64,000 nucleotides of DNA from Patescibacteria group bacterium. Its GTDB lineage: Bacteria; Patescibacteriota; Patescibacteriia; Patescibacteriales; UBA12465. A model generated the notes under the pieces. It was not told where the DNA came from. It saw only the letters and a list, made by a program, of their open reading frames with translations, and did not search any database. This document shows, piece after piece, positions 33,138-55,800 of the stretch (positions within the stretch are counted from its first letter, which is position 1; every line of letters starts with the position of its first letter). The stretch is from assembly GCA_041650715.1 (NCBI GenBank), contig JBAZKQ010000001.1, forward strand, positions 587,146 to 651,145, read 5' to 3'. The position numbers and the translations under genes are program-made.

Positions 33138-33170
33138 AAAAAAACCTCTTATAAACATAAGAGGTTTTTG
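33138..33170. terminator. bidirectional terminator hairpin
   Basis: aaaaaa-acctcttat-aaac-ataagaggt-ttttt. Confidence 0.5.
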
Positions 33171-33191: not shown

Positions 33192-34124
33192 TTAAGGCAT
33201 GTAGGTGCAACCAGTTGCAAGTTCATGTTGATATGAACTTGTGGAACTTAACATATTACATCCCAAATGAACATACGCGTCCGGAATACATACAACCGGA
33301 GAAGCTTCAAGATTCTGACAAGTCGGCGATGAATTTGAAACCTGCGAATGAAGGCAGGTAAAGCCTGTCTGACAACCTAGACCCGCCCCATTCCCCGGGG
33401 GGGTGGCGCAAGCTACGGTGCGAGTGCAGCCACCGGTCGGAATGTAAGTCTGAGAGGAAGCCGCCGACGTCTGGACGCAAGTATAGGTAACCCGGCCACT
33501 CGGGTGGCAGACCATCGAATAATACACATAAGAACCGGAGCAATTATTGGTATTATAAAAGGTACTACCACTATAACAAGTATAACCAGTGTCGCAACCG
33601 CTAACTGTTCCGCAATTACAAGCCTGACTTAAAACCGGGCTACCACCCGTACAAGTCGCCGGCGTAGAACTGACAACAATTCTTGTTTGTGTGCCTAAAT
33701 AACATTCGCTCCAGCCAGAGTAAACAAATGAAGTACAGGTAGTACAGGCTCCGCAATCAGACGGGCAATTTGTACAATTTTCATTATTATCAGCTACATT
33801 GCAAACGCCTCCTCCAAAAATACCTTGAGCGCCGTCGCCGCAACACCAGATATCAACTCCATTTGTACTCGTCGCAAATTTACGAACGCTTAACCACTCT
33901 TGGCTAGTCTTGTTTGGAAGAAATAAATTCTTGCCGGAATGATTATCTATTTTACAATTATCACCATAGCTACTAATAACATCTGACTTTGTTTGACCAC
34001 TCGGGATAGAGTAAGAATCCAACCATGCACCTCCCCAAGAAAAGACAAGCACCGGCAAAACGATAGCGCTTATGACAATAATTAATATACTTATTAAATA
34101 GGATTTTTTAAAAAAGTTTTTCAT
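33192..34124 (-). CDS. Cys-rich secreted protein, unknown
   Basis: Signal-anchor N-terminus. More than 30 Cys in CxxC/CxC patterns across the mature part. Confidence 0.4.
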   Translation of the reverse strand: MKNFFKKSYLISILIIVISAIVLPVLVFSWGGAWLDSYSIPSGQTKSDVISSYGDNCKIDNHSGKNLFLPNKTSQEWLSVRKFATSTNGVDIWCCGDGAQGIFGGGVCNVADNNENCTNCPSDCGACTTCTSFVYSGWSECYLGTQTRIVVSSTPATCTGGSPVLSQACNCGTVSGCDTGYTCYSGSTFYNTNNCSGSYVYYSMVCHPSGRVTYTCVQTSAASSQTYIPTGGCTRTVACATPPGNGAGLGCQTGFTCLHSQVSNSSPTCQNLEASPVVCIPDAYVHLGCNMLSSTSSYQHELATGCTYMP

Positions 34125-34128: not shown

Positions 34129-34461
34129 TTAGTATTCTTTCAAAATATCACTTTCTTTTTTAATTATTTTATAACTTGTGATATTTCCATCCTTATCTCT
34201 CGCTAAAACCTGGATATTATCCACCGAACTCGTATTAATTGAAAAGTTATCCTTTTCTTTCGGTGTCATGAATTCAAGCTCAATCGGCTTAGGCATATTT
34301 ACAGTCGCTGATGGGACTGTCATTTCAGTAGGATTTTCAATCAGATTCACGTAGCCGGCGGGTGGCGTTTGACGATTACTGAAAAATTTGTAAAAAATAA
34401 AAATAGCAAGCAGCAAAAAAAGCGCTATAATTACTAAAACCATTAAGCGCCCTTTTTTCAT
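34129..34461 (-). CDS. small single-TM protein
   Basis: 110 aa with an N-terminal TM helix. Confidence 0.3.
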   Translation of the reverse strand: MKKGRLMVLVIIALFLLLAIFIFYKFFSNRQTPPAGYVNLIENPTEMTVPSATVNMPKPIELEFMTPKEKDNFSINTSSVDNIQVLARDKDGNITSYKIIKKESDILKEY

Positions 34462-34462: not shown

Positions 34463-37400
34463 TTATTTAAGCTTATTTTTTAGTTCCAGTTTTTTGATTC
34501 TAGCTTCGAGAGTATCTATTTCCTTCTGCTGGGCTTTTACCGCTTCAATCAGAGGTGCAACTAAGTTACCATACTGAACGCCCTTTGCGCCTTCAGTCCC
34601 ACTAACTAATTCGGGATAAACTTTCTCTACTTCCTGAGCGACTAAACCGAGACTTGCAGCGCCGTCCGCCTTCCAATTAAAGGAAACCCCGCGCAGTTTC
34701 ATGATTTTATCCAAGGAATTATCCAAGGTTTTAATATTTTTCTTTAAATTACGATCGGAAGAATAAGTATAAGAAGTGGCCAGTACATTGCCGACGACCT
34801 CTAATTTACTGACCGGCGTCGTTGTGCCGATACCGACGTTAGCGCCCTTGACGTTTAATTGTCGATTGCCATAAAAATAAGTTCCGGTTGTTAAATTAAG
34901 CGCGGATATAACCTCGTCGGCGATCATGCTATACACGCCCATTTCCCCCTGATTATAGCCGTCCTGCATAATAATATCATTAGAGGTAAAGCCATAGGGG
35001 GCCGAAACGGCAGTACTTGCATATACGCTGCCAATGACCTGCAAGGCAGCCCCTGGATTCGTCGTCCCAATCCCAACTTTACCCAGCGATGTAATTGTCA
35101 CTTTGTCCGTTCCGCCGGTCTGTATTTTTAAAGTATCATTCACTCCATCCGCATTAATAATTGAGTAGCCGCCGGTATTGGAAAGCAAACTTAAAGTAGC
35201 GCTACCCGAGGTAGTCGGAGCAATATATAAAACGGCACCGCCCGCTTTATTAAGCGTTACGTCATTGCTAAGCAAAGTAGTACCGGCGACATTCAAGTTA
35301 TAGCTTCCCGTGGCAGTTGTGCCGATACCGACGTTGGAGCCAAAATAAGCTTTACCATCTAAACCGATAGCCGCGCCGATAGCACCGTTATTTGTAAAGA
35401 CGATTTGATGAGTATTAAGAAAGGGCGCACCGCCATTGGTGCTATAAGCATAGCCCATACCATATTGCGCACCAAAATTATCATTAGCTGTGCTCATCGG
35501 ATATGCTTCGGATATTGACCAAATGCCCTGAACCTCAGCCGCATTATAAGTTCCATAGCTGCCTAATCTTGATGTTTTGACGGCACCCAAAACGTCAAGC
35601 GCCACGGCTGGGTTTGTCGTACCTATCCCGACTTTACCATTCACGATCAAATTAGAAATATTACCATCAATAAAAGATCCGATTTCTACGGCCGGCCAAC
35701 CAGCGTCAACATTAATTTTTAAACTTGTATCTCCTCCTCCAGGACTCAAGGCGCCATAATTATCACCGGAAACATAGGTAGTCAAATTTAAAGAATGAAA
35801 GCTCGCAGAGCTGCCGCCAGTCACTGCCGCGGAAAAATTTGCCATCCCAGCAACATTTAATTTATAGGTGCCAGGGAGTGTTGTGCCAATACCTACGCCA
35901 GTGCCATTATCAAAAATAGAACTAATGGTTAAACCCGTAGAGCTTGCCCATTTTGTAACATAATTAGTTGTGCCAGTACCGGTAACTGTGCCGCTGCCAC
36001 CAGCCGGAAGAATAAGACAGCCTTCAGCATTTCCGGAAGCGTCAATACCCGCAGGATAATAGCCTGCCCCGCAATTAGTACCGTTAGCAGCCAAGGCGGT
36101 GGCTGTGCCTGACCGCAAACTGGCCGCCGTACCGGTTAACCCGGTACCGGCTCCGCTAAAAGATGAACCGGTTATCGTACTGGAGACATTTAAAGTTCCT
36201 AAAATATAACTATTGCCGTTTACATATAATCTATAGGCGCCCGGAGTTGTAGTGCCGATACCGACATTACCGGCGCCGGCGTCACCGTTATAAATAACGC
36301 CGTTTTTAGTCCCTTCCCAGAGATTACTGGCCGCAATTAAGGTCTTAACGTACCCTGTATTAGTCAGGGCGTAATCATCGGTGCCTAAATATGTACTTGT
36401 ATAATTATGACCTGTCGCGCTTGAACCGACCGGAGCATAGGCACCAACATTAGCGATTGAAAAACTATCATTCGGAGCACCGGTGCCACCGATACCGACA
36501 TTGCCGGCAGTCGGTTGCAAGAGGACATAACTCGTAGTTCTGGTGGCATTACTTGTTCCCTGCAAAGTTAGGTTTCCGCTCGCCACATCAGAACCATTTA
36601 TAGTCGCATTATCAGAAGTAAAAGTTAAAGAAGTCGGTCCGCCCCAATTAAAGGCGGCGCCGGTAGTAAGCGTAGTGAGTGATGAAGCGGTCAAAGATGT
36701 TTGCCCAGTTAAAGTCAGGGCGGTCGCCGTAAATAAAGCGCGCTGAACTCCGCCTAAAGTTAAGCCAATTTGACTTGCGGCCGGATGATACATGCCGGTT
36801 GTCAGGTCTCCGGTCCAAGCGAAGGAAGGTGTAGAAATAAGGTCAGCCGCTTGGCCTAAAAATTGAGTATCAGAACTAACTGAACTGGTAAATTTAGCAG
36901 GGCCGGAAACATTTAGGCGATATGCACCGGGAACGGATGTCCCAACACCGACATTGCCGGTAGAATCAACATAAACACCCTCATTACCACCGTCTCCCGA
37001 TAACCAATGAGTACTTAATTGAATATTTTGGGTTGCAATATGAGAACCTAAATCATCACCTCCGGTAGATGTTCCGCAGTCAACTCCTTTTGCCGAGACG
37101 ATACCGGTCGCATCAACATATAAACAGCGATTACCGGTACCGGCGAGCGTTGAATTGGTTATTTGGCCGTTAAAATAACTTGTACCGACGACCGCTAATT
37201 TCGCTAAGGGCGAAGTGGTGCCAATGCCGACATTGCCCGCGCCGGCGTCGCCATTATAAATAATACCATTATTGATGCCACTCCAGAGAAGCGAAGTGCA
37301 AGTTTCCGCATTGCCGGAAGCATCAATCCCGAGGGGGTAATTACCCGTCGTACAATTGTTCCCATTACCGGCAAGGGTGCTGGCCGAACCGGCCGTCGAT

Positions 37401-37669
37401 GCCGAAGAGGCAGTCAAGGCATAGCTCGAAGTTGAGGCATTTCCGGTATAGGTAGTAGCGTTGATTGAACCGCCCACACCGGCCGTCCAAGTTACTTTAT
37501 CGGCATTCGCGGCAAAATTTATTTTATACCCGCTGCCGATTCCTAAGCCGGTAACAAAGTTTGGCGTAGCCGCAAGAGCGTTTTGCGAAAAAGCAAAAAC
37601 AACCAGTAGGAATAAAATCGAAGCTGGAATAAGCAGGAATTTTTTATTATTCATATTATTATTCCTCAT
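34463..37669 (-). CDS. giant secreted tail-fibre-like protein with C-terminal intramolecular chaperone (peptidase S74) domain
   Basis: Signal peptide. Repeated NVGIGTTxPxxKLxVxG motifs and the ~90-aa module shared with the genes at 46052-64000. C-terminal SDRNLKKNIKTLDNSLDKIMKLRGVSFNWK...GLVAQEVEKVYPELV matches the self-cleaving chaperone domain of endosialidase/tail-fibre proteins. Confidence 0.7.
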   Translation of the reverse strand: MRNNNMNNKKFLLIPASILFLLVVFAFSQNALAATPNFVTGLGIGSGYKINFAANADKVTWTAGVGGSINATTYTGNASTSSYALTASSASTAGSASTLAGNGNNCTTGNYPLGIDASGNAETCTSLLWSGINNGIIYNGDAGAGNVGIGTTSPLAKLAVVGTSYFNGQITNSTLAGTGNRCLYVDATGIVSAKGVDCGTSTGGDDLGSHIATQNIQLSTHWLSGDGGNEGVYVDSTGNVGVGTSVPGAYRLNVSGPAKFTSSVSSDTQFLGQAADLISTPSFAWTGDLTTGMYHPAASQIGLTLGGVQRALFTATALTLTGQTSLTASSLTTLTTGAAFNWGGPTSLTFTSDNATINGSDVASGNLTLQGTSNATRTTSYVLLQPTAGNVGIGGTGAPNDSFSIANVGAYAPVGSSATGHNYTSTYLGTDDYALTNTGYVKTLIAASNLWEGTKNGVIYNGDAGAGNVGIGTTTPGAYRLYVNGNSYILGTLNVSSTITGSSFSGAGTGLTGTAASLRSGTATALAANGTNCGAGYYPAGIDASGNAEGCLILPAGGSGTVTGTGTTNYVTKWASSTGLTISSIFDNGTGVGIGTTLPGTYKLNVAGMANFSAAVTGGSSASFHSLNLTTYVSGDNYGALSPGGGDTSLKINVDAGWPAVEIGSFIDGNISNLIVNGKVGIGTTNPAVALDVLGAVKTSRLGSYGTYNAAEVQGIWSISEAYPMSTANDNFGAQYGMGYAYSTNGGAPFLNTHQIVFTNNGAIGAAIGLDGKAYFGSNVGIGTTATGSYNLNVAGTTLLSNDVTLNKAGGAVLYIAPTTSGSATLSLLSNTGGYSIINADGVNDTLKIQTGGTDKVTITSLGKVGIGTTNPGAALQVIGSVYASTAVSAPYGFTSNDIIMQDGYNQGEMGVYSMIADEVISALNLTTGTYFYGNRQLNVKGANVGIGTTTPVSKLEVVGNVLATSYTYSSDRNLKKNIKTLDNSLDKIMKLRGVSFNWKADGAASLGLVAQEVEKVYPELVSGTEGAKGVQYGNLVAPLIEAVKAQQKEIDTLEARIKKLELKNKLK

Positions 37670-37707: not shown

Positions 37708-38277
37708 CTATTTAACAATCATCGTGCCCGTGTTTCCGCGAAAGCCCGGAATATCATCACGGAAAGAATAGGATCCGGCGGCAGGAGCGGTAAATTCTAT
37801 AAGCTTGGTTTCACCACTTAAAATCATCATTGTCAGGCCCATTAAAGATGCGTTCGGAAAAATAAAAACATGAGTATTATTATCAACCGAACTGACGGCC
37901 AAGGATATCTTCTGACCGGCCGAAACGGTAAATTCTTTTGGGCTAAATCCTTCCGCAGAAACCGAAAGTTTTATGGCGCTCGTCGGAACATTACTCGTTT
38001 CGACAACCACCTGCTGGGGGGCATCGGCAGACCCGGGCAGTTCACCTAAAGTAGCGGGTATAACCGGAACTATCGTGCTGACATCAACTCCTTCAAGAGA
38101 GGCCGTCTTTGTTTCCGCTACCGGAGAAGTAGTAGCTTTACTCTCGCCGGCCGTATTTGATTGCGTTACGACGCCGGACGGTTTAAGCCAGTTTTTATTA
38201 CTTAAAAAAGCGAATAAAATTACTACTAAAATAATCACTAAAACAGCGATTAAAATAGTTAATTTTTTATTATTCAT
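37708..38277 (-). CDS. membrane-anchored cupredoxin-like protein (Cu ligands lost)
   Basis: Paralog of the 39878-40549 protein. The C-terminal motif is YSFRDDIPGFRGNTGTMIV, versus YTFRCDIPGHAARGEVGTMIV in the paralog. Confidence 0.45.
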   Translation of the reverse strand: MNNKKLTILIAVLVIILVVILFAFLSNKNWLKPSGVVTQSNTAGESKATTSPVAETKTASLEGVDVSTIVPVIPATLGELPGSADAPQQVVVETSNVPTSAIKLSVSAEGFSPKEFTVSAGQKISLAVSSVDNNTHVFIFPNASLMGLTMMILSGETKLIEFTAPAAGSYSFRDDIPGFRGNTGTMIVK

Positions 38278-38337: not shown

Positions 38338-39888
38338 TCATTTTTGATAATAGAAATCAAATAAAACTTCATTTAAAAAGGGGGAATAAAAACTGTCCGT
38401 TTGCGCCGGAAAGTCGACGCGCAAAAAATAATTATTTTCTACCGTCGCCTTAAAAGTTTGGTTCAAATTTTGTCCGCTCGGCAGCTCTTGCCAAAAATTA
38501 TTGTCCGTCGAGAATGAAAGCTTCCCTTCCGAACAAGGATTATCGGGAGAACCTAACTTGCTGGCGGCCAATTTTTTAATAGTTATCCCCGGTTCGGCAA
38601 TAATGGCATTATAAATTAACTCACCCGGCATTCTACTCTCAAAACCACGATCAGTAAAAACCCGGTTCGTCTCCATATTGTCCTGCCTAATCGTGGCCAG
38701 CAAGACGAACTTATCGGCCGCTGCCGCGACAAGGCGGAAAGAGGCCGATTCCCCGGAATTACTAAAGATATTTTGATAATCAGCTTCACCACTAATTTTA
38801 CCATCACTATTTTGCCAAAGTTTAATGAGCCGCGGACGACCCAAGCTCGAGCTATAGATATACCAATTAACAACCCGTCCATTAGTGGCTTTGATAATTT
38901 CCGGCCTAAAACCGGTCGCCATTACCCGAAAATCAAAAAAAGTACTGATATCCGTTACCGTAGCAGCCTGAAAACGATAGGCCTCACCGCGATAAGCGCC
39001 ATAAATTACTAAATAATCAGTATCGGAACCGCCGAAGCCAAACTGCCCCAAATAAGGAGAACTAATTTTTTCGGTCTGGTCGCCGAAAATAAGCGGACTA
39101 AATTTATTGCCATCAAAAATGTAGACCCTCCCTTGATAAGCGTCGCCCTCTTTTAGAGTTAGTCCAAGCAACCAGCGGGTGTCAAGCGCGCCAATCGTTA
39201 AAGCGACCACGTCGGCGGCCTTAATTTCACCGGGCAAAGCGAGAGGCTTCCCCTGATAACTTAAATGCTTCCCCGTTTGTTCTAAACAATTTCCGCCGAG
39301 ACAGCGCCGGTCAGAAATAACGAGAGGCTCTAAAAAATCACTTATTTTATTTTGAGCTAATGAATTACTTTTAGCTAACTCCGCTTCATTTTTTAAACTT
39401 TGACCGGAAGATTCTTCTTCCCAGGTATAGCGCGGCGGAAAATAAACGGCCGCCGCCAAATCATCGCGATAAAGCGTGCTCGCCGCTGAATTTAGTAAAT
39501 AATCACTCGCGAAACTATCAAAAAACGAACTGAATATCTGCGGCTTATCATCCACAATAATCTCGGAACTTAAGCACGGAACGCCTCCGTCGAGATTATC
39601 CTGCTCAGATAAGCGGGTTTGGGACTGCTCTCGGCTTAAGATCCGTTCAGTCATCGAGCCGGAATTCGAACCTTGATTAGCGGCCGCAAAATAAGTCCGG
39701 CAGCAAAATATAGTCAAATAATAAACAGCAATTAAAAAAAGACTAAAAATAATTAAATAGCCTAAATTTAAAAAATATTTATTTTTAACAGTTTTTCGCA
39801 TAGCCCGCTTTATAGCGCTTAGACTCACTTTATGAAAATGCCCCGCTATAGAGCGGGGCATTTTATAAAAACCGAGATTATTGAACAA
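38338..39888 (-). CDS. membrane-anchored hypothetical protein
   Basis: 516 aa. N-terminal TM, no recognisable motifs. Confidence 0.35.
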   Translation of the reverse strand: MFNNLGFYKMPRSIAGHFHKVSLSAIKRAMRKTVKNKYFLNLGYLIIFSLFLIAVYYLTIFCCRTYFAAANQGSNSGSMTERILSREQSQTRLSEQDNLDGGVPCLSSEIIVDDKPQIFSSFFDSFASDYLLNSAASTLYRDDLAAAVYFPPRYTWEEESSGQSLKNEAELAKSNSLAQNKISDFLEPLVISDRRCLGGNCLEQTGKHLSYQGKPLALPGEIKAADVVALTIGALDTRWLLGLTLKEGDAYQGRVYIFDGNKFSPLIFGDQTEKISSPYLGQFGFGGSDTDYLVIYGAYRGEAYRFQAATVTDISTFFDFRVMATGFRPEIIKATNGRVVNWYIYSSSLGRPRLIKLWQNSDGKISGEADYQNIFSNSGESASFRLVAAAADKFVLLATIRQDNMETNRVFTDRGFESRMPGELIYNAIIAEPGITIKKLAASKLGSPDNPCSEGKLSFSTDNNFWQELPSGQNLNQTFKATVENNYFLRVDFPAQTDSFYSPFLNEVLFDFYYQK

Positions 39889-40549
39889 TCATTGTACCGA
39901 CTTCACCACGAGCGGCATGTCCAGGAATATCACAGCGGAAAGTATAGGTTCCCTTTTTCGGGGCGTTCCAGGACTTAACGCGTGTTTCTCCACCGGCAAC
40001 GCCAAGCGCAGTCGCAGTCAAAGCGGTGTCATCAGGCAAGAAAACGTGAGTAAAGCTATCAGTTGAAGTTAAAACAAAGTTAACCAATTGACCTTCCTTA
40101 ACCGTAAAGGTGTTCGGCACAAAACCAGCACCGCTCACTGATAATTTAACGGTATTAGCACCGGTCGGAACTTGGCTCGCAGAAATTGGAGCTGATTCTT
40201 TAGGGGCATCGGCTGAGGACGGCATAACATTCAATTTAACCGGCGTGCCTTCCGGGGTCACAACTTTATTCTCCTTTGTAACTAAGCTGGTTCCAGTCGC
40301 AACTGAAACGGACGAGGCGATAATTTCCGGAGTAGCCGTCGCCGTTGAAACGACATCCTTCGAAGGAGCGATTTCTTCAGGCGAAGTTGTCGCGTTGCTC
40401 GCTTCCTGAGTAGGAGTAGTTATCCCCCCAGTCGGCAATTGGATTTTCTTGCTTTGGCTAATCGCGACAATAATGATAATCACCACCACCGCAATAACTC
40501 CAAGCAAAATAAACACTTTTTTCTTGTTTGTTTGCATAGATTTAAACAA
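39878..40549 (-). CDS. membrane-anchored cupredoxin (plastocyanin/azurin-like blue-copper domain)
   Basis: N-terminal TM, Thr/Ser/Pro linker, C-terminal C-x2-PGH-x4-GxM copper-site motif (FRCDIPGHAARGEVGTM). Confidence 0.55.
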   Translation of the reverse strand: MFKSMQTNKKKVFILLGVIAVVVIIIIVAISQSKKIQLPTGGITTPTQEASNATTSPEEIAPSKDVVSTATATPEIIASSVSVATGTSLVTKENKVVTPEGTPVKLNVMPSSADAPKESAPISASQVPTGANTVKLSVSGAGFVPNTFTVKEGQLVNFVLTSTDSFTHVFLPDDTALTATALGVAGGETRVKSWNAPKKGTYTFRCDIPGHAARGEVGTMIVQ

Positions 40550-46051: not shown

Positions 46052-49000
46052 CTACCGATTAACGATAACTCCCGTTTGCGCTTGGTCATGCGCTCGCGTC
46101 GGCCAATTCTGCCAATCGTAGCGTTTGCCGATTAAACGATAAGAAATTTCCACCGCTTCGTTTGAGCGGAAAATTAATTTATTATTTTCAATAACATAAT
46201 AGACATTAGCGAATTTACCCGACGGGGTAATAAATACTTGGACATTATCATTATTATAATCAACAACTTTATGCCAGAGCCAGAGGTCGCTGCCCTCGTC
46301 TTCAAGCGCAAAATTTATAATATATTCATATTCCCGCGTCTTGGCATTAAAACGCTGAATATCTGCCTTCCCGACATATTCCTCCTTAACGCCACCGGCG
46401 ATTGAAGGCGCGAAAGTAGAATAATTAACATCATTAATATTATACAAAGGATCGATTGTCGTAGCGGTAATCTTAGTGACGGTCAAATTATTCAAGTTAG
46501 TAATATTTTTGGCACCAAAATTTACGTCACCCAGCATTGTGCCGCCGGTAAGCGGTAAATAATTACCGGTGGGCATTGAGCTGGTCGCAGCCGCAATTAA
46601 TGTTTTCACAATTCCATAATTAGCAAGAGCATAGTCATCAGTACTCAAATATGTGCTCGCATAATTATGCCCGGTATTTAATGAGCCGGCCGGAGCGGTG
46701 CCCGCGTTGCCGATAGAGAAAATATCGTTAGGAGCGGTCGTACCGATACCAACTTTACCCGTGCCTCCCGGCATTAAAGCGAGGTTAACACCCGAAGCGG
46801 TAGTAATAGAGTTGGGACCGGTTCCGGAGAAGGCTAAATCAGCACCGGCACCAGAGAGAGTAATGCCGGTTGTCCCGGCTAAGGCTAAATTGGCGGCGCC
46901 ATAAATATCACCACCGGCAATATTCAAACGATAGGCACCCGGCAGAGATGTCCCAATACCGACGTTCCCGGTAGCGTTAACAAAAACACCTTCATTACCG
47001 CCGTCTCCCGATAACCAATAATTACCAAGTAAAATATTTTGTGTGGCCGTATGGTCGCCTAAATTATCGCCACCAGTTGCCGTACCGCAATCTGTCGTTT
47101 TAGCGGAAACGTTTCCGGTCGCATCGACATATAAACAGCGATTGCCCACCCCGGATAAAGCGGTGGTAATTTGACCATTTAAATAACTGGTCCCGACGAC
47201 AGCCAATTTATAAGCCGGTGTCGTTGTACCGATGCCGACGTTGCCCAAACTTTCACTAACATAAAATAATGAAGACCCGCTTCGATTATTAATATGGAAA
47301 CCAACGTTTGTGGAATCATAACCGACGCTCATTCGTTCCAGACCGGATGAATTCAAAAATTTCAGCATTTTGTCATTGGACGTCGCGGAGTTAGATTGAA
47401 TAGCTATTTGTCCACCGGTAACCGTTAATTTGCTGCCGGGTGTTGTCGTCCCAATCCCGACATTCCCTGCTCCGGCCGCACCGTTCCAAATATTACTGTT
47501 TAAAGTTCCACCCCAAAAATTTGTTCCTCCGGCGGGCAGCGAGCTCGTTGCGGCCGCAATCAAGGTTTGAACGATGCCATAGTTAGCAAGCGCATATACA
47601 TCAGAACTTAAATAAGTGCTCGTATAATTATGGCCAGTTGCGCTGGACCCAGCCGGAGCCGAACCGGAGTTGCCGATAGAGAAAATATCGTTAGGAGCGG
47701 TGGTACCAATACCAACGTTGCCGGAAGTTCCTAATATAGTCATTCTTATATTTGCATAACCATCCGTAGAAAAATATATTGGCTTGGCAGCAACATCATT
47801 TGAAAAATATAAATCAGTAGCATTTAATCCGTATCCGAACCAACCTAATCTTATTCCAGAATTATTAAAAAATTCAGCATAAGGCGTTGCAGCTTTTAGT
47901 CCCAGCGTATGACCAACCCCTTGAATCATTGTAACAACACTGTTAGCGGAGCTGTAAACATGTAATGGATAAGCGGGGCTAGTGGTGCCAATTCCAACAC
48001 TCCCGGCAGCATTTACAAAAACACCTTCATTGCCGCCATCGCCTGATAACCAATAATTACTTAATTGAATATTTTGCGTTGCAATATGAGAACCTAAATC
48101 ATCGCCCCCGGTCGCCGTACCGCAATCCGTTGTTTTCGCGGACATATTGCCACTCGCATCAACATATAAACAGCGGTTGCCTACTCCGGATAAAGCGGTG
48201 GTAATTTGACCATTTAAATAACTGGTCCCGACGACAGCCAATTTATAAGCCGGTGTCGTTGTGCCGATACCGACGTTACCGAAAGAATTAATAAACTGGC
48301 GGGTAACGCCATTGCTTACAAAACTAAGTGTTTTATTTGTACCATCAAATAATACTTGTGCTTCTGTACCGCCTAAAGTACTTGACAAAGTGTTAACCTC
48401 AAGCGTTGTTCCATAATAAACCGAACCGCTTTCTGTTCTAAATTGGGCCGCTCTAATATTTCCGGCCACCTGTAACTTATCTATCGGAGCAGTTGTCCCG
48501 ATTCCCACATTTCCCGCTCCGGCATCGCCATTCCAAATATTTACATTCTTAGTACCTCCCCAAAAATTTGTTCCTCCGGCGGGCAGCGAGCTCGTTGCGG
48601 CTGCGATTAAAGTATTAACGATTCCATAATTTGCCAGAGCGTAATTATCCGTACTTAAATATGTATTTGTAAAATTATGTCCGGTATTTGCCGACCCGGC
48701 CGGAGCCGAACCGGAGTTGCCAATGGAAAATCTATCGTTAGGAACGGTCGTCCCGATCCCAACATTGCCGGAAGCAATAATGCGCATAGCCTCTGTTCCC
48801 TGATTTACAAAAAATGCATGCTGGCCATTAACACCCGCTTGATATTCCATTACATTAAGCGACATGCCGATACCATATCGATTGCCGGTAGAACCATTGG
48901 TAAACATGTCCCACTTTAAGTTATTTACACTTCCCGCGACACTCGAACCATAAGTACCGCCGAAGGAAACGTTTAATGGCGTCGGAGTTGATACCGATAC

Positions 49001-49843
49001 CGTAGTACCAAATAAGGCGCTACCATTAACGTTCAATAATCTTGTCGGATTCGTTATTCCAATCCCGACATTATCCGTGATTGTACTCGGATATAAATAG
49101 GGTGCTGTTCGTGTCCAACCGCCCGCTCCACCGCTAACTGAAGCCCAATCAGTTCGACAGTCATCCTGAAAACATAAACGATTAGCTTTTAAATCACCCT
49201 CGATTCCGAGTGAAACCACATCGCCGGTGCCATAAGCAAAAGGAGTCGCACCGTTATAATTCCCAAACCAAAGCGAGGTCGTCCCGACTCCGGTTAAGGC
49301 AATCGATTTATTATTAGTTAATTGTAAATCTCCTGTCGGTGCTAAATTACCAAGACTATCAAGCGTTAAAGAAGGAGTGACAACCTGCTTAATAAACCCA
49401 CTGACATTTGATAAATTTGAAATTTTGAGCGGCGCGGAAACGCAAGCACCGGATATTAAATCATAACCGGCGACACAAGAGGTGCAGGAATTGCTCGTAC
49501 AAGTATCGCAAGTGGCACAATTCGATCCGGCCGTACAATTTGAAACGCAAGCGCCGCTACAATTCGTATATCCGCTACTACAAGTTAAAGCACAGCCGCA
49601 AATATTACAGTCAAAAGCATAAGTACCATTGGCCGGATTAGAGGGACATGCGGCCGTCGGCTCGATTGTACAGGCAAGCGTATTACTGCCGCACCAAGAC
49701 TTGCCACCATCCGCCCAGGAGCATAATTCCCCGTTTTTCATCGTATCGGTAATACAACCTTTAGGCGAAGTGGTCGCAAAAACTCCGGTAGCTATGAACA
49801 GCCCGGAGAATACGACAATGGCGAGCAAAAATTTCTTCGTCAT
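46052..49843 (-). CDS. giant secreted tail-fibre-like repeat protein (1263 aa) with Cys-rich N-terminal region
   Basis: Signal peptide. Cys-rich region (~60-140). Three copies of the ~90-aa module NVGIGTTAPNDIFSIGNSGSAPAGS.NTGHNYT.TYLSTDDYALANYGIV.TLIAAATSSLPAGGTNFWGGT.N.NIWNG.AGAGNVGIGTT. Also carries the NGQITTALSGVGNRCLYVDA.GN.SAKTTDCGTATGGD module. Confidence 0.7.
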   Translation of the reverse strand: MTKKFLLAIVVFSGLFIATGVFATTSPKGCITDTMKNGELCSWADGGKSWCGSNTLACTIEPTAACPSNPANGTYAFDCNICGCALTCSSGYTNCSGACVSNCTAGSNCATCDTCTSNSCTSCVAGYDLISGACVSAPLKISNLSNVSGFIKQVVTPSLTLDSLGNLAPTGDLQLTNNKSIALTGVGTTSLWFGNYNGATPFAYGTGDVVSLGIEGDLKANRLCFQDDCRTDWASVSGGAGGWTRTAPYLYPSTITDNVGIGITNPTRLLNVNGSALFGTTVSVSTPTPLNVSFGGTYGSSVAGSVNNLKWDMFTNGSTGNRYGIGMSLNVMEYQAGVNGQHAFFVNQGTEAMRIIASGNVGIGTTVPNDRFSIGNSGSAPAGSANTGHNFTNTYLSTDNYALANYGIVNTLIAAATSSLPAGGTNFWGGTKNVNIWNGDAGAGNVGIGTTAPIDKLQVAGNIRAAQFRTESGSVYYGTTLEVNTLSSTLGGTEAQVLFDGTNKTLSFVSNGVTRQFINSFGNVGIGTTTPAYKLAVVGTSYLNGQITTALSGVGNRCLYVDASGNMSAKTTDCGTATGGDDLGSHIATQNIQLSNYWLSGDGGNEGVFVNAAGSVGIGTTSPAYPLHVYSSANSVVTMIQGVGHTLGLKAATPYAEFFNNSGIRLGWFGYGLNATDLYFSNDVAAKPIYFSTDGYANIRMTILGTSGNVGIGTTAPNDIFSIGNSGSAPAGSSATGHNYTSTYLSSDVYALANYGIVQTLIAAATSSLPAGGTNFWGGTLNSNIWNGAAGAGNVGIGTTTPGSKLTVTGGQIAIQSNSATSNDKMLKFLNSSGLERMSVGYDSTNVGFHINNRSGSSLFYVSESLGNVGIGTTTPAYKLAVVGTSYLNGQITTALSGVGNRCLYVDATGNVSAKTTDCGTATGGDNLGDHTATQNILLGNYWLSGDGGNEGVFVNATGNVGIGTSLPGAYRLNIAGGDIYGAANLALAGTTGITLSGAGADLAFSGTGPNSITTASGVNLALMPGGTGKVGIGTTAPNDIFSIGNAGTAPAGSLNTGHNYASTYLSTDDYALANYGIVKTLIAAATSSMPTGNYLPLTGGTMLGDVNFGAKNITNLNNLTVTKITATTIDPLYNINDVNYSTFAPSIAGGVKEEYVGKADIQRFNAKTREYEYIINFALEDEGSDLWLWHKVVDYNNDNVQVFITPSGKFANVYYVIENNKLIFRSNEAVEISYRLIGKRYDWQNWPTRAHDQAQTGVIVNR

Positions 49844-49861: not shown

Positions 49862-52800
49862 TTATTTACAGCAAGCGAATTTTCGCGCAACGTTACAGCG
49901 GTTAAGCGAACCGAAACCATCAGCATACCCGGTCGGACGATTCCAGACCGCGCCGAAATCAGTACTAACATTACTTGTCCACCCGATACAGTCATTGGCA
50001 TTAGCCGTATAGGCCGGCGGACCATTATTAATCCAGAGTGTAGAGGTGAGCGGAATACTCGCCCCGCTGCCCTGATTGACCGTATATAAAATTTCTTCAG
50101 AAGTACAAACATGCGTATCGGCAACAGTCGCCGCACATAAAGCATTGGCCGCGCTATAGCTGCCGACGTTGCCGGCATAGGTTAAAGCGGTTGAAGTAGA
50201 ATAGGTCGCTAAACCACCGCCGGTCGAACCCGAGATCAATGACTTCACTACGCCGTAATTAACTAAAGCGTAATCGTCTGTGCTTAAATAAGTATTCGTA
50301 AAGTTATGACCGGTGTTCGTTGAACCGGCTGGAGCGGAGCCCGAGTTGCCGATTGAGAATATATCATTCGGTACGGCGGTACCAATGCCGATATTGCCGG
50401 TGCTTAGTATGGTCATTCGATCAGAAAGTGAGTTAAACAAGGACCCGGAACTGCCGGCATCCGCTGTTTGAAAAGTGATGTTGCCACCGATAGCCGAGCC
50501 GGTTCCCGGACCGCCCGCAATGACTAAATTCGCGCCCGCATTATTTGTGCCGAGACCGCCCGTAGCGAATAAAGAAATCGTGCCCGGGTTCGAAGCATAA
50601 ACTCCCTTCCCTAAATAGATATCATTTTGATTCGCACCTAAGATTATCTGATTACTCTTTAAAGCCTTTGCGTTATACCCGACCACAATTGAATTGGCCG
50701 AATCGGCAATAACGCTTGTAAGCGAAGCATCGGCCGTCGTATCGGAATAGGTGGTCGTTGAATTATCATTAATAGTTGCCACTAAATAATATGGCCCCTT
50801 ACCATAAACGCCTGACTTAGTACGATAAATTTTTCGAGCTGTACAAAGATACGGCCCCGTGTAGGTCGGAATTGCACTCAAATTAACCGCTTGATTACCG
50901 GACGTCGTATTTATGCTTCCTAAGTGCCCGCTATTTGTTTCCCCAATAGACAAAACAAAGCTCACTCGATAATAATATGGGCCGACGCCCAGATTACTCC
51001 CGGCGGCCAAAGCGAGAGAACCGGTGCCGGGGCTAAGATAATCTGCACCGCTCCCCAAGGCAATATTATAAGAACCGTTTACCGTACTGACAAGAGAATT
51101 AGTACCCAGCGCCAAAGTATCGCTATTGGCATTTCCATAATAATTTGAGTTAAAGCCCAAAATAACATTACTATTTCCCGTAGAATTCCAGCGCCCGGCG
51201 TAATAGCCCATCATGACCGCACCGGCGCCGGTCCAAGATTCGCCCGCGCCCAGACCGACTAAAGTATTATTGCTGCCGGTCGTAATTTGGTTACCAGTTT
51301 GACGACCAATTAAAGTATTCATCGTTCCGGTCGTTATGGCTGAACCGGCGCCGCGGCCAATAGCCACGTTATAACTACCAGTCGTTAGATTCTGACCCGC
51401 CTGAGCTCCGATAAAGGTATTTTCGGTAGCGGTTGTCAAAGTTGTGTTACCGGCCTGATAACCGACAAAAATATTATTAGTATTTCCAAAAGAATGAATA
51501 TATCTTTGCCCGCCCATCTTAATTATACCTTCAGTAGAGGAAGATAAAGGTAGGCCAAGATTACCTTGAACATATAATTTATCAGCCGGGGTGCTTGTGC
51601 CAATACCAACATTCCCTGCGCCCGCAGTCCCGTTCCAAATATTTCCGTTAAAAGTGCCTCCCCAGAAATTCGTTCCCCCGGCCGGTAGTGAACTGGTCGC
51701 GGCGGCGATTAAGGTTTGAACAATTCCGTAGTTAGTAAGAGCATAATCATCTGTGCTCAAATATGTGTTTGTATAGTTATGGCCAGTATTACCCGATCCA
51801 GCCGGAGCGGAGCCGGAATTACCGATTGAGAATGTATCGTTAGGAACATTTGTGCCGATACCGATATTGCCCAATGAATCGATAAACTCGCGTGTGGCAC
51901 CGTTTGTTACGAAACTTAGTGTCTTGCCAGGGCCATCAAACAATATTTGTGCTTCTGTACCGCCTAAAGTACTTGACAAAGTGTTAACCTCAAGCGTCGT
52001 TCCATAATAAAACGAACCGCCATCCGTTCTAAATTGGGTTGCCCGTATATTTCCTGCGACTTGTAGTTTGTCACCTGGCGCTGTCGTCCCAATCCCGATG
52101 TTGCCTCCGGCCGCTATTCTCATTCTTTCAACATTTGTAGACTGAGTAAATGTTATTGGCTGGTCACCTGAAGTTGCAAAACCAAGAGGATAAGTAGTTA
52201 TAGTTTGAAATAAAGATCTGGCAGTATCCTTCCCATTAATTCTAAACCCATTTAAATAAGTATAGCCGTCTACATATAAGGCCCACGGTTGAGCGCCCGT
52301 CCAGGCGGTATTTTGTTTAACATAAAGAGCGGAGCCTCCGCCATTATTAGTTCCGCCATCTCCAGCCGTAGCCGAATTTATCGTCAAGGCTGAGCCCGGT
52401 GTCGTCGTCCCAATGCCAACATTCCCCGCCCCAGCGTCGCCGTTCCAAATATTACCGTTTAAAGTCCCACCCCAGAAATTCGTTCCCCCGGCCGGTAGTG
52501 AACTGGTCGCGGCGGCGATTAAAGAATTTACGTAACCAACATTAGTTAAGGCATAATCATCGGTTGCTAAATATGTACTCGTAAAGTTATGGCCAGTGTT
52601 CGAGGAACCAGCCGGAGCGGTACCGGAATTACCAATAGAAAAGATATCGTTTGGCACAGTTGTGCCAATCCCGACGTTGCCATTAGCAAGGATCATCATA
52701 TTATATCTGACAGCTGAGTTATACCAACTACTAAAAGTAAAATTTGAAGCGGAAGAATAAAAAGTGTTTGCGGAAAAAGCGGATGCACCAACGATAAACT

Positions 52801-55800
52801 GTGAGCTACTTTTAACGGCGCCAACCACATCCAAGGGGTACGTAGGAGCGGTCGTTCCAATCCCGACGTTGCCGTTACCAAGAATAGTTAATAAATTAGA
52901 GGTAAAAAAGGAAGCCATTCCCCCATTAGCGGTGCTAGCGGGCGAATATTTAATTTGAAAAGCAGGAGAAGTAGACGCTGTGCTTGGGCTCATGAAAATT
53001 GCCGCCGACGAATAAGTAGTGTTACCTTTCGACCACGTATCAGCCCCCAGCGTGCCCTGATAAGCATTTCCCGCCAAAAAAGTATCAGCACCAGAATATC
53101 GCGTGCCTACCGATGCGCTATAGCCGTCTCCAATACGAATTTGAATACCGGAGGGGTTAGAGCCATCAATTTTTAAGCCTGTTGGTTCTATCGATCCTGT
53201 CGGGCCGGCTATTTCCAATTTATACCCCGGATTAGTTACTCCAATCCCGACATTATTTGCCCCATTTAAAGTCCAAATATTACTGGCCGTTGTTCCTCCC
53301 CATAGAGCCGTAATAGAACCTGTCGCCGTCCCAATCATTGTTTTCACTAAACCATAATTAGCCAAAGCATAATCATCAGTACTTAAGTAAGTGTTTGTAT
53401 AATTATGACCAGTGTTAGAAGATCCAGCCGGCGCGGAACCAGCGTTACCAATAGAAAATTTATCGTTCGGAGTCAGCGTTCCGATGCCGACGTTACCTTG
53501 ACCTGCTCTCGAAAAAATTGATAAATTACCGGCCTGAGTATATTCTTCCGCACTACCATTAAAATAGCGTACACCATCAACTAAAACTTTATAGCCGGTT
53601 CCGCCCTGATAATTAAAAAGGAATAATGGTTTTATGTATTTAGTCCCGACAGGAAATTGGTAAGTACCGGTTCCTTCACCGTGTAAAGTACAGGTATACT
53701 TAGTCCAAGTGTTTGGCACGGCGGCGGCAGAAGCCGCACAATAACCATAAGAGCCGCCATTCCCGGACAACGCACCTTTGGCTGAATTATAGGCAGCTGT
53801 ACCAAAATAAATTGTGCTCAAACCTGATGCGCCGACGCTCTTAAACCAACCCTCAAGATAAAAATAACCATCCGAATCAACTGGAATAAACTCAGTGCCC
53901 ATACCAACCGTTAGGCTCGTATCGCTATAAGCTGAATATTTGCCATCTTTGCTATCCGTCGATTCAATCCCATTAAAACCTGCTCCGGTAAAACCATCTA
54001 AAGACCCCGTTTCAAAATCACCATTCGGGGTTAAATTAATCGCTGCATAATTAGCCACTAAAGAACCGGCAACTTGTAATTTCGCCTGTGGGCTTGAAGT
54101 GCCGATACCAACGTTGCCGTTTCCTGATATTCTCATTTTTTCTGATAGCTGGGTGCCGTGCGCTCTGGTGTTAAATGATAAATAACCCCCATACTCTCCT
54201 GCAGTAGCACTTTCTTTCGCTCCTTTAATTACAGCAAAACCGGCTTGCGAAGTAGAGTTATATCTTCCACCAAAACCTATTGAACCGCCAATATTAATTC
54301 CTAAAGCGTCATTAGTCGCAATATTTAATACACCAGCGTTAACTGAGACGGCGCCAACTATCACATTTGGTCCGGTAATAGACGCTGTAGGAGCCGTTAA
54401 ACTATCTGCCGCCGCATTAACTGTTCCGCTTAATATATCTAATTTTGTATTTGGATTTATTGTCCCAATCCCGACGTTGCCATCTGATTTTAAATACAAA
54501 GCTGGCGTTGTATAATTATTATTTACAACAAAAGCAATTGGGATAGCCCCGTTTGTGGCGAACTCAAATCTATTTGTTCTTTGCGGTTGCGCGACATAGC
54601 CGGTGCCAAAATAATTTATAAAACCTTTTTCTACGTTTAGTTCATCACGGAAGCTCAAGCTATTATAACCAGCTGAAGTTTTTAAACTCATTGCCAAGCT
54701 ACCAGCATTAGCGGAGATATGCAAAGGCAAACTTGGAGTTGTCGTTCCAATCCCAACGTTCCCTGCTCCCGCCGCGCCATTCCAAATGTTACCGTTTAAA
54801 GTTCCACTCCAATAATTTGTAACAGTCGGTAAAGAACTGGTCGCATCAGAAATTAAAGACTTAACAATTCCATAATTAGTCAAAGCGTAATTATCAGTCG
54901 TCAAATATGTGCTTGTAAAGTTATGGCCCGTGTTCGCTGAACCAGCCGGAGCTTGGCCTGAGTTACCGATTGAAAAAATATCATTCGGAGCAGTCGTGCC
55001 AATACCGATATTTCCGGAACTTAAAATAGACATTTTTATACTACTGGCGGATAAAAATGAAAGGGTGGACGGGGAGTTGAAAAATATCGTATCGCCCGAA
55101 GAACCTACGACATTAAAAGGTGTTCCCCCGCTATTTTTTATTTGCAAATTATAATTATTATCCAATAATATATTTCCACCACTAACTTGTAATTTAGCCA
55201 CGGGCCCAGCATTACCAATGCCAACATTACCATCAAAATAGGCGTTCTTATTAGGATACAATCTAAACGTATTATTATTGTAGGCAGCGTTTGTTTCGGC
55301 CCCAAAGTACATATAGCTAACGGTTGAGATTGCAGGATCAAGAACCACGCTTCCTAAAACACCAATCACGCCGGCACGAGTCAAATTGGTCGATACATTG
55401 CCGATATATCCTTCAAACATATTATATGCAATACCTGACACATCGGGTCGTAAAGCAACTTGTTTTATGCCTGGTCTGGACGTCGCACTATTCGCACTAA
55501 GATTTAGCGCATAGCTGCCTCCACTATTAAATACATCAAGAATTGTAGTCGGATTCGTCGTCCCGATCCCCACATTTCCTGCTCCCGCGGCTCCGTTCCA
55601 AATATTACCGTTTAAAGTTCCGCCCCAAAGTGCGGCCAAAGTGCTGGTGGCCGAACCAATTAATGTTTTGACTACACCATAATTAGCTAAAGCATAGTCA
55701 TCTGATGCTAAATATGTGCTCGTGAAATTATGTCCCGTATTACCGGAGCCGGCCGGAGCCGCGCCCGCGTTACCAATGGAAAAAATATCGTTAGGTAAAG

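What the first reader, a model, noticed from the sequence alone, without database searches (positions are those of the whole stretch)
34463..34760. C-terminal intramolecular chaperone (peptidase S74) domain marks the 1068-aa protein as a phage-tail-fibre/endosialidase-type trimeric fibre encoded chromosomally
The last ~95 aa (SDRNLKKNIKTLDNSLDKIMKLRGVSFNWKADGAASLGLVAQEVEKVYPELV...YGNLVAPLIEAVKAQQKEIDTLEARIKKLE) match the auto-cleaving C-terminal chaperone of K1F endosialidase and T5 L-shaped tail fibre, in which a Ser-Lys dyad cleaves at the Ser of the SD motif. No phage structural genes are nearby. Instead the gene lies with cupredoxins and other envelope proteins, suggesting a cellular fibre (adhesin, possibly for episymbiotic attachment) that uses phage-fibre folding logic.
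Basis: established knowledge. Interest (0 to 1): 0.55.

Follow-up and report, generated by a model that had tools for sequence, protein, structure and literature searches.

The report
Self-cleaving surface fibre of a Patescibacterium
The 1068-residue protein is a secreted, chromosomally encoded fibre of an ultra-small (Patescibacteria) bacterium that ends in the same self-cleaving folding domain as phage tail fibres; it belongs to a very large, already recognised family, but sits in a conserved locus that could hold this group's host-attachment fibres.

Summary
ORF 34463..37669 (-) ends in a Peptidase_S74 intramolecular-chaperone domain: Pfam E=4e-17, S971/K976 dyad in SDRNLK, and a confident AF2 model whose best fold matches are MyRF ICA, the K1F chaperone and Bdellovibrio MAT fibres.

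I found no capsid, terminase, portal or tail genes in the 64 kb. The gene lies in a locus that is syntenic in four Patescibacteria assemblies: cupredoxin, a ~490-aa membrane protein, fibres, then ligA-gatCA-dsbA. The locus is therefore cellular and vertically inherited.

Three giant paralogues upstream share the repeated beta-helix shaft. They lack S74 and carry other tips, one tentatively C-type-lectin-like. This mirrors the S74/non-S74 "mosaic adhesive trimer" repertoire of Bdellovibrio.

- **Most likely mechanism:** Sec export, chaperone-templated trimerisation, self-cleavage at S970|S971, and release of a ~937-residue adhesin fibre.
- **Shown versus inferred:** export, trimerisation, cleavage and the adhesin or host-attachment role are all inferred. 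None was shown here.
- **Novelty is modest:** NCBI already labels the protein "tail fiber domain-containing", and the family has about 450,000 clusters at 50% identity.
- **What may be new:** the Patescibacteria setting and the conserved locus. I found no paper describing them.

The parts
34463..37669 (-). Gene for the 1068-aa S74-terminated fibre protein (F1068). It is identical to P0001 apart from a start codon 5 aa later. NCBI names P0001 'MAG: tail fiber domain-containing protein [Patescibacteria group bacterium]', on an 809-kb contig.
37571..37669 (-). N-terminal signal-peptide-like segment, aa 1-33 (MRNNNMNNKK-FLLIPASILFLLVVFAF-SQNALA|ATP). It has a basic n-region, a 17-residue hydrophobic core and A-L-A before the predicted cleavage point.
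   Evidence: Read by inspection of the sequence. No signal-peptide predictor was available.
37286..37570 (-). N-terminal module, aa 34-128, including a Cys-loop unit (NCTTGNYPLGIDASGNAETC). The same module sits at the N-termini of fibres P0007 and P0016, and internally in P0004. It is unrelated to the Bdellovibrio MAT N-domain.
34760..37285 (-). Fibre shaft, aa 129-970. It carries 10 'capping-loop' motifs ([VIL]-G-[IV]-[GN]-T-T-x-P-x-x-x-L type), two further Cys pairs and one APxGSxxTGHN(F/Y)TxTYLxxDDYAL module. Residues 125-160 and 449-485 are near-duplicates, so the shaft looks like two concatenated fibre units.
   Evidence: sequence hit to the Bd3182 beta-helix 8ojn; PHROG tail-fibre families align over aa 149-1061
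34802..34837 (-). Last capping loop (V945-G-I-G-T-T-T-P-V-S-K-L956), immediately upstream of the cleavage site. Bd3182 and MyRF have the same arrangement.
34757..34762 (-). Predicted scissile bond S970|S971, with S971 as the nucleophile.
   Evidence: Placement follows T5 pb1 (Thr1263|Ser1264; PMC4690869) and Bd3182 (mature chain ends at A781, catalytic S782).
34742..34744 (-). K976, the general base of the Ser-Lys dyad (i+5 from S971).
34466..34759 (-). Intramolecular chaperone / Peptidase_S74 domain, aa 971-1068. It is a small alpha/beta unit followed by a 35-residue C-terminal helix, presumed to form the trimeric coiled coil.
   Evidence: Pfam; AF2 pLDDT 92-98 for blocks covering aa 971-1068; Foldseek 7dc3 E=2.6e-7 and 3gw6 probability 0.99
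34129..34461 (-). 110-aa protein with an N-terminal TM segment. Its start codon lies 1 nt after the fibre's stop codon. A homologue (38% identity) follows the fibre and Cys-rich genes in the Falkowbacteria locus L017.
33192..34124 (-). 310-aa protein with an N-terminal TM segment and 26 Cys. Positional counterparts of 339-343 aa with 22 or more Cys occur in L015 and L017, with only weak similarity.
33140..33169 (-). Terminator-like 13-bp hairpin plus T-run after the 310-aa gene. It is the likely end of the transcription unit.
   Evidence: consensus scan only
37708..38277 (-). TM-anchored cupredoxin-like protein of 189 aa. It has lost the Cys and second His copper ligands.
38338..39888 (-). Membrane protein of about 507-516 aa with unknown function. 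It is conserved next to the cupredoxin and S74 fibre in L015 (26% identity) and L018 (39% identity).
39878..40549 (-). TM-anchored cupredoxin of 223 aa with a complete type-1 copper ligand set (His, Cys, His, Met). The ligands are conserved in L015 and L018.
46052..49843 (-). Paralogous fibre G1263. It has a signal peptide, a Cys-rich N-region, 10 capping loops and no S74. Its ~230-aa C-terminal tip recurs in at least 9 other fibres.
49862..56452 (-). Paralogous giant fibre G2196. It has 13 capping loops and no S74. Its six-Cys C-terminal tip is tentatively C-type-lectin-like.
56460..61262 (-). Paralogous giant fibre G1600 (matches P0006). It has 11 capping loops, no S74 and the same six-Cys tip family.

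Best explanation
F1068 is a cellular surface fibre of a Falkowbacteria-like Patescibacterium, not a virion part. Proposed mechanism:
1. The N-terminal signal peptide sends the chain through Sec. This step is inferred.
2. Three C-terminal S74 domains (aa 971-1068) associate through their long terminal helices. They template the interdigitated trimeric beta-helix shaft, whose modules are marked by 10 capping loops. This is inferred from homology and from the model.
3. Only in the correctly folded trimer does K976 activate S971, which cuts the S970|S971 bond. That releases a 98-aa chaperone and exposes the distal tip. The dyad is shown to be present. Cleavage itself is inferred.
4. The mature chain of about 937 residues forms a fibre. 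By proportion to Bd3182 it would be roughly 60 nm long.
5. Together with three paralogues that share the shaft but carry other tips, it most likely acts as an adhesin that recognises surfaces of a host or partner cell. This is inferred by analogy with Bdellovibrio MAT fibres. The adhesin role is the weakest link.
For: S74 domain:
- Pfam E=4.2e-17.
- S971 and K976 are invariant among 40 homologues.
- The AF2 model is confident, at pLDDT above 90, over aa 971-1068.
- Of the top 24 Foldseek PDB hits, 3 are MyRF ICA chains (7dc3), 5 are K1F chaperone chains (3gw6) and 16 are Bdellovibrio MAT fibre chains.

Mechanism, from the literature:
- In T5 pb1 the Thr1263-Ser1264 bond is cut.
- Lys1269 activates the Ser.
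- An Arg from a neighbouring chain makes correct trimer folding a requirement.
- The binding site is unmasked on release (PMC4690869).
- The Bd3182 S782A mutant blocks processing (PMC10769870).

Cellular rather than phage:
- The whole window encodes cellular functions and no virion core genes.
- The order cupredoxin, ~490-aa protein, S74 fibre, then ligA is conserved in L015, L017 and L018/L019.
- LigA is 63-85% identical to the window copy, while the fibre is only 32-49% identical outside the chaperone.
- No full-length relative exists in IMG/VR.
- The best GenBank phage match to the C-terminal 239 aa is about 34% identical, against 46-57% for the closest cellular homologues.

A signal-peptide-like N-terminus is present in all four paralogues.

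Mosaic repertoire:
- The shafts are 31-50% identical between paralogues but the tips differ.
- The G1263 shaft hits Bd3182 (E=6e-6) and Bd2133 by sequence.
Against: - Nothing here shows export, trimerisation, cleavage, surface display or binding.
- Only a monomer model could be built, and its shaft part is poorly predicted (pLDDT 45-60 for model residues 51-110).
- The signal peptide was judged by eye.
- No cell-anchoring element was identified, and the conserved N-terminal domain of the Bdellovibrio MATs is absent.
- Only 64 kb of an 809-kb contig was inspected, so tail-like machinery elsewhere in the genome is not excluded.
- The link to the cupredoxin and the ~490-aa protein is positional only.
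Confidence: 0.75

Rival explanations
1. The gene is a tail fibre of a prophage or a decayed prophage remnant in the Patescibacteria chromosome.
For: Fifteen PHROG families match, fourteen of them tail or virion-structural, with the best at E=3.5e-31. 809 GenBank phage records and at least 501 IMG/VR loci share the C-terminal module.
Against: There is no capsid, portal, terminase, tube, sheath, baseplate or integrase in the 64 kb. GC content around the gene is like the rest of the window. The locus is syntenic in four assemblies whose LigA is only 63-85% identical, which argues against a mobile prophage. The protein has a signal peptide, which virion fibres assembled in the cytoplasm do not need. 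Phage identity is 34% or less over the tip plus chaperone, and about 50% only within the chaperone itself.
Confidence: 0.04
2. The fibres arm a phage-tail-like particle (tailocin or extracellular contractile injection system) encoded elsewhere in the genome.
For: Such particles do use S74-type fibres. Only 8% of the contig was examined.
Against: No sheath, tube or baseplate genes lie near the four fibre genes. All four have Sec-type N-termini, which is hard to reconcile with cytoplasmic particle assembly. The fibres sit in one long co-directional gene cluster with membrane proteins.
Confidence: 0.05
3. It is a cell-surface fibre with a role other than host recognition. Examples are a structural envelope or S-layer-associated filament, general attachment to particles or biofilm, or shielding against phages.
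For: The molecular evidence is the same as for the best explanation. Rapid divergence would also fit phage-driven selection on an exposed surface protein. Related fibres occur in Bacteroidota and other free-living groups, and the family has about 450,000 clusters, so the architecture is not specific to predators or symbionts.
Against: Exchangeable tips, including a probable lectin-like domain, and multiple paralogues point to ligand recognition rather than pure structure. The best-characterised cellular relatives are prey-handling adhesins.
Confidence: 0.15

Closest known systems
Bdellovibrio bacteriovorus MAT (mosaic adhesive trimer) fibres, S74 subgroup, e.g. Bd3182 (PDB 8OJN/8ONB/8ONC; PMC10769870)
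   Same: Both are chromosomal, signal-peptide-bearing proteins of about 1000 aa. Both have a beta-helix shaft with V-G-G/N-x-x-x-P-x-x-x-L capping loops and a C-terminal S74 with SDxxxK. In both organisms these coexist with paralogues that replace S74 by other tips. The C-terminal ~230 aa are 39% identical to Bdellovibrio and Bacteriovorax fibres P0085 and P0115.
   Different: The conserved ~130-aa N-terminal domain of the MATs is absent, and the four window paralogues do not share one N-domain. The organism is a Patescibacterium; that phylum is not listed in the paper's Table S3 of diverse MAT proteins and is not mentioned in the paper. The locus is linked to a blue-copper protein and a ~490-aa membrane protein. 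No localisation or binding data exist.
Intramolecular chaperone domains of phage fibres and spikes: K1F endosialidase (3GW6), T5 pb1 (4UW8; PMC4690869), S16 gp37 (6F45)
   Same: The Pfam family is the same, and so is the Ser/Lys dyad with i+5 spacing. The domain is C-terminal, directly after a trimeric beta-structure, and the fold is similar.
   Different: The gene is not in a phage genome, the protein has a signal peptide, and there is no sialidase or other enzymatic head domain. Identity is about 34% to the best GenBank phage over the tip plus chaperone, and about 50% to IMG/VR viral contigs within the chaperone only.
MyRF ICA domain (eukaryotic membrane-bound transcription factor; PDB 7DC3; PMC8326128, PMC3742443)
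   Same: It is the best structural match (Foldseek E=2.6e-7, TM 0.61 normalised to the target, 30% identity). It shows the same capping loop followed by SDxxxK.
   Different: In MyRF the cleavage frees a transcription factor from the ER membrane. Here it is predicted to free the tip of an extracellular fibre.

Membership tests
Peptidase_S74 / intramolecular chaperone (PF13884) | Match to the family HMM above the curated threshold | tested here: met
   62.6 bits against a cut-off of 22, E=4.2e-17, profile positions 1-57 of 58
Peptidase_S74 / intramolecular chaperone (PF13884) | Catalytic Ser with Lys five residues downstream (SDxxxK) | tested here: met
   S971-DRNL-K976. Both residues are invariant in 40 aligned homologues.
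Peptidase_S74 / intramolecular chaperone (PF13884) | Chaperone fold (alpha/beta unit plus long C-terminal helix) at the C-terminus of a fibrous trimer region | tested here: met
   AF2 pLDDT above 90 over aa 971-1068. Foldseek hits 7dc3 at E=2.6e-7 and 3gw6 at probability 0.99.
Peptidase_S74 / intramolecular chaperone (PF13884) | Trimerisation-dependent autoproteolysis | not testable with these tools
   This needs expression of wild type against S971A or K976A mutants. Only monomer modelling was available.
MAT fibre superfamily (Bdellovibrio, PMC10769870) | N-terminal signal peptide | tested here: inconclusive
   The n-, h- and c-regions with A-L-A are seen by inspection in F1068, and similar N-termini occur in all paralogues. 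No predictor was run.
MAT fibre superfamily (Bdellovibrio, PMC10769870) | Conserved ~130-aa beta-rich domain right after the signal peptide | tested here: not met
   BLASTP finds no similarity (E>0.5) between any window paralogue's N-terminus and P0085 or P0115. The Bdellovibrio-versus-Bacteriovorax control gives E=1.3e-4.
MAT fibre superfamily (Bdellovibrio, PMC10769870) | Beta-helix shaft with V-G-G/N-pi-x-x-P-x-x-x-L capping loops | tested here: met
   There are 10 motif copies in F1068 and 10-13 in the paralogues. Sequence hits reach 8ojn and 8ond and fold hits reach 8onc, 8ond, 8onf and 8oml.
MAT fibre superfamily (Bdellovibrio, PMC10769870) | Mosaic tips: S74 in some members, unrelated adhesive domains in others | tested here: met
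   F1068 ends in S74. G1263, G2196 and G1600 lack it and carry two other tip types that recur on other fibres. The C-type-lectin assignment is tentative.
MAT fibre superfamily (Bdellovibrio, PMC10769870) | Surface display and binding of target-cell glycans | not testable with these tools
   This requires experiments.
Phage virion tail fibre or tailspike | Encoded within a phage or prophage structural gene module | tested here: not met
   No virion core genes occur in the 64 kb. The chromosomal locus is syntenic in four assemblies. No full-length relative is present in IMG/VR.
Endosialidase (GH58 tailspike enzyme) | Sialidase beta-propeller catalytic domain | tested here: not met
   PF13884 is the only Pfam family found in the 1068 aa at E<=0.01.
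Trimeric autotransporter adhesin | C-terminal YadA-type membrane anchor | tested here: not met
   The C-terminus is the S74 domain and no YadA-type anchor family was reported. JGI's 'trimeric autotransporter adhesin' label on homologues P0071 and P0075 is not supported for this protein.

The most novel reading that the evidence does not exclude
The conserved locus next to ligA is the host-recognition apparatus of Falkowbacteria-like episymbionts. It comprises a membrane-anchored blue-copper protein, a ~490-aa membrane protein, one S74 fibre and several giant non-S74 fibres with swappable tips, one of them lectin-like. On this reading it is a Patescibacteria counterpart of the Bdellovibrio MAT repertoire with its own, still unknown, anchoring system, and tip exchange sets host range.
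Probability: 0.3. Interest if true: 0.65.

Novelty: new member of a known kind. Interest (0 to 1): 0.38.

Why it matters
How ultra-small episymbiotic Patescibacteria find and hold their hosts is largely unknown; the abstract of PMC12206443 (seen) says so, and published work centres on type IV pili. A conserved cluster of long, fast-evolving, tip-swapping fibres gives concrete candidates for that role. It would also extend the idea of phage-type receptor-binding fibres used by cells from predatory Bdellovibrio to the candidate phyla radiation. The molecular part, a self-cleaving S74 chaperone, is directly testable in E. coli.

As a domain assignment alone the finding is ordinary. NCBI already annotates it, and the family is huge.

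Tried and rejected
- **Exact-sequence look-up of the 1068-aa product:** it found nothing, because the public gene call starts 5 aa later (P0001).
- **DGR hypothesis for the neighbouring reverse transcriptase:** rejected. The repeats upstream of the RT are a tandem duplication of a structured unit, not an A-mutated template/variable pair. The best RT match is the defence-type UG26, and the group II maturase score of 115 bits is far below the 300-bit cut-off.
- **NCBIfam:** no model matched the fibre or its paralogues.
- **Pfam at E<=5:** nothing usable for the non-S74 tips or the N-terminal module.
- **Homologue search for the six-Cys tip:** only 5 proteins came back, so the AF2 model is poor (pLDDT 56). 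The C-type-lectin reading rests on weak but uniform Foldseek hits.
- **Cluster look-up of ten unnamed homologues:** it gave no names or organisms.
- **PDB sequence search of the ~490-aa neighbour:** nothing significant.
- **Rfam at gathering thresholds:** only a tRNA in the window.
- **Recent gene conversion between the fibre paralogues:** not supported. Shared modules are only 60-86% identical in DNA, and there are no inverted repeats.
Full report
**1. The observation**

- Pfam places Peptidase_S74 (PF13884, 'chaperone of endosialidase') at aa 971-1022, with E=4.2e-17 and 62.6 bits against a gathering cut-off of 22. It is the only Pfam family found in the protein.
- The motif S971-D-R-N-L-K976 supplies the Ser/Lys dyad with i+5 spacing.
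- I aligned the last 239 aa with 39 homologous C-termini. S971, K976, G1008, A1011 and P1019 are invariant.
- S-D-x-x-x-K sits at the expected place in 50 of 56 homologues.
- Sequence search of the PDB hits the chaperone region of the phage S16 long tail fibre (6f45_A, E=1.1e-7), MyRF (7dc3_A) and, just upstream of the chaperone, the Bdellovibrio fibre Bd3182 (8ojn_C).
- An AlphaFold2 model of aa 830-1068 has pLDDT 92-98 over aa 971-1068.
- Its top 24 Foldseek PDB matches are 3 MyRF ICA chains (E=2.6e-7 for the best), 5 K1F chaperone chains (3gw6, probability 0.99) and 16 Bdellovibrio MAT fibre chains.

**2. The rest of the protein**

- The N-terminus has a basic stretch, a 17-residue hydrophobic core and A-L-A, so it looks like a Sec signal peptide cleaved after A33. 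This was judged by inspection only.
- The remaining ~937 residues are rich in Gly, Thr, Ala, Ser and Asn.
- They carry ten copies of a (V/I)-G-(I/V)-G-T-T-x-P-x-x-x-L motif.
- The Bdellovibrio study defines this same 'capping loop' consensus (V-G-G/N-pi-x-x-P-x-x-x-L) on the trimeric beta-helix of Bd3182 and notes it in MyRF (PMC10769870).
- PHROG tail-fibre profiles align along most of the shaft, for example over aa 149-1061 and 462-1067.
- There is no enzyme domain, so this is a fibre rather than an endosialidase-like tailspike.

**3. Not a prophage**

- Pfam and PHROGs scans covered essentially every ORF of 100 aa or more in the window.
  - They find glycosyltransferases, ABC transporters, malic enzyme, peroxiredoxin, PadR regulators, DsbA, GatA and LigA.
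  - Upstream of the fibre they find cupredoxins, a PLD-family protein, a reverse transcriptase and giant secreted proteins.
  - They find no capsid, portal, terminase, tube, sheath, baseplate or integrase.
- GC content around the gene is typical of the window.
- The public copy, P0001, lies on an 809-kb contig of a 'Patescibacteria group bacterium'. NCBI already names it 'tail fiber domain-containing protein'.

**4. A conserved chromosomal locus**

The same gene order recurs in other Patescibacteria assemblies. The order is:
- a giant fibre;
- a cupredoxin;
- a ~490-aa membrane protein;
- in some genomes, a non-S74 fibre;
- the S74 fibre;
- small TM and Cys-rich proteins;
- a Fib_succ_major protein on the opposite strand;
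- ligA, gatC, gatA and dsbA.

The assemblies are L015 (GCA_050949465.1), L017 (Ca. Falkowbacteria GCA_037132255.1, where the contig starts inside the fibre gene) and L018/L019 (ENA metagenomes, where enolase rather than gatC follows ligA).

Identities to the window copies:

| Protein | L017 | L015 | L018 |
|---|---|---|---|
| LigA | 85% | 64% | 63% |
| GatA | 81% | 66% | not present at that position |
| S74 fibre | 49%, C-terminal part only (aa 678-1068) | 32% | 64%, chaperone region only |
| Cupredoxin | not on the retrieved stretch | 40% | 66% |
| ~490-aa protein | not on the retrieved stretch | 26% | 39% |

The locus is therefore vertically inherited. Its fibres evolve much faster than housekeeping genes and are remodelled; the Falkowbacteria orthologue even carries an intein.

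No full-length relative is present in IMG/VR. The chaperone module alone is shared with at least 501 viral contigs at up to ~50% identity, and with 809 GenBank phage records at 34% identity or less over the tip plus chaperone.

**5. A paralogous, mosaic fibre set**

Three upstream genes also start with signal-peptide-like segments: 46052-49843 (1263 aa), 49862-56452 (2196 aa) and 56460-61262 (1600 aa).
- They contain 10-13 capping loops and share shaft modules with F1068 at 31-50% identity. None has S74.
- A ~95-nt module encoding APAGSxxTGHNFTxTYLxxDDYAL occurs 16 times across the four genes, at 63-73% DNA identity. These are old duplications, not recent conversion.
- The G1263 tip recurs on at least nine other fibres.
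- G2196 and G1600 share a ~110-aa tip with six invariant Cys, which is also found as stand-alone proteins of ~145 aa.
- The model of that tip is weak (pLDDT 56). All 50 best Foldseek hits are C-type-lectin-like domains, but with E>=0.035, so I treat that assignment as tentative.
- The G1263 shaft hits Bd3182 (E=6e-6) and Bd2133 by sequence.

**6. Mechanism**

From T5 pb1 (PMC4690869):
- the chaperone trimer forms first and its tentacles confine the fibre chains;
- the Thr1263-Ser1264 bond is cut after Lys1269 activates the Ser;
- an Arg from a neighbouring chain makes correct trimer folding a precondition;
- release of the chaperone unmasks the receptor site.

In Bd3182, self-cleavage occurs at S782, the mature chain ends at A781, and S782A blocks processing and localisation.

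By homology I propose four steps for F1068: Sec export; chaperone-templated trimerisation; cleavage at S970|S971 by the S971/K976 dyad; and release of a 98-aa chaperone. That would leave a fibre roughly 60 nm long, scaled from the ~550 Å model of Bd3182.

The domain, the dyad and the fold are shown here. Export, trimerisation, cleavage and the adhesin function are inferred.

**7. Comparison with known families**

- **S74 family.** The protein is a member; every sequence or structure criterion I could test was met.
- **Bdellovibrio MAT fibres.** It works like the S74 subgroup and shares the shaft motif and the S74/non-S74 mosaic logic. It lacks the MATs' conserved N-terminal domain. BLASTP gives no hit better than E=0.5, while the Bdellovibrio-versus-Bacteriovorax control gives E=1.3e-4. 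I therefore describe it as MAT-like rather than a strict member.
- **Taxonomic reach of the MAT paper.** Its table of diverse MAT proteins lists predators, some FCB-group taxa and an Omnitrophica MAG. It lists no Patescibacteria.
- **Literature.** Three searches found no paper linking Patescibacteria to S74 or MAT-type fibres.

**8. How ordinary is it?**

A profile of the tip plus chaperone finds 450,127 clusters at 50% identity with E<=1e-3, and 88,634 with E<=1e-30, among 1.84 billion representatives. Many are giant proteins with dozens of repeats. The architecture is therefore very common in public (meta)genomes, and the domain call is already in NCBI's annotation.

What may be new is the Patescibacteria setting, the conserved locus next to ligA with a genuine type-1 copper cupredoxin (ligands His, Cys, His and Met conserved), and the hypothesis that these fibres mediate episymbiotic attachment.

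**Verdict.** This is a new member of a known kind, of moderate interest.

Noticed in passing
window 40567-46052 (- strand); RT 44170-45402; repeats 45401-45715 and 45730-46016: A ~5.5-kb block is inserted inside the fibre cluster and is absent at the syntenic site of L015. It holds a 410-aa reverse transcriptase whose best match is the defence-type RT_UG26 (E=1.9e-35; the group II maturase score is only 115 bits against a 300-bit cut-off). It also holds a 567-aa protein of unknown function, a PLD/DrmC-like nuclease and a 194-aa protein. Directly upstream of the RT are two tandem copies (81-89% identical) of a ~300-nt unit with terminal inverted repeats. One unit folds into a 23-bp closing stem plus about 8 hairpins (MFE -103.5 kcal/mol, z=-7.7). 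No Rfam family matches. It looks like an uncharacterised RT plus ncRNA defence system.
   Followed up: partly
L017:1-3283 (P0004, Ca. Falkowbacteria GCA_037132255.1): The closest named orthologue of the fibre carries an intein (PT-HINT / Intein_splicing; CFSGDTVI...VLVHN) inserted in the fibre shaft. That is an unusual place for an intein.
   Followed up: no
window 39878-40549 and 37708-38277 (-); L015:5024-5719; L018:2833-3486: A TM-anchored cupredoxin with a complete type-1 copper site (His, Cys, His, Met) is conserved next to the fibres in three genomes. The window's second copy (189 aa) has lost the Cys and the second His. Why a blue-copper protein travels with surface fibres is unexplained.
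   Followed up: partly
L017:6210-7106 (- strand in the locus): The Falkowbacteria locus holds a 298-aa mini-fibre with a lipoprotein-like N-terminus (…LFVSC), a single capping loop and a complete S74 domain (SDRNLK).
   Followed up: no
window 61334-63874 (-): An 846-aa secreted protein with three Laminin_G_3 (ConA-like lectin) stretches heads the co-directional fibre cluster. It matches a PHROG 'virion structural protein' only through that lectin domain.
   Followed up: no
window 1-6000: GC content drops to 0.32-0.34, against about 0.43 elsewhere, over a cluster of glycosyltransferases, an FkbM methyltransferase and a polysaccharide flippase. This may be a horizontally acquired surface-glycan island.
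   Followed up: no
window 25643-25728 and 25706-26377 (-): A tRNA-Ser(GGA) predicted by ARAGORN, but not reported by Rfam, overlaps the 3' end of a 223-aa ORF that has a weak LAGLIDADG-like endonuclease hit.
   Followed up: no
P0010, P0014, P0019 (eukprot transcriptome assemblies): Three proteins of ~1500-1650 aa from a eukaryotic transcriptome assembly carry PF26696 plus PF13884 and match the fibre at 45-47% identity over ~12% of its length. They are either bacterial contamination or eukaryotic S74 fibres other than MyRF.
   Followed up: no
representative library hits P0129-P0145: The same capping-loop and S74 architecture occurs in giant proteins of up to ~7,900 aa with up to 52 matched repeat stretches.
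   Followed up: no
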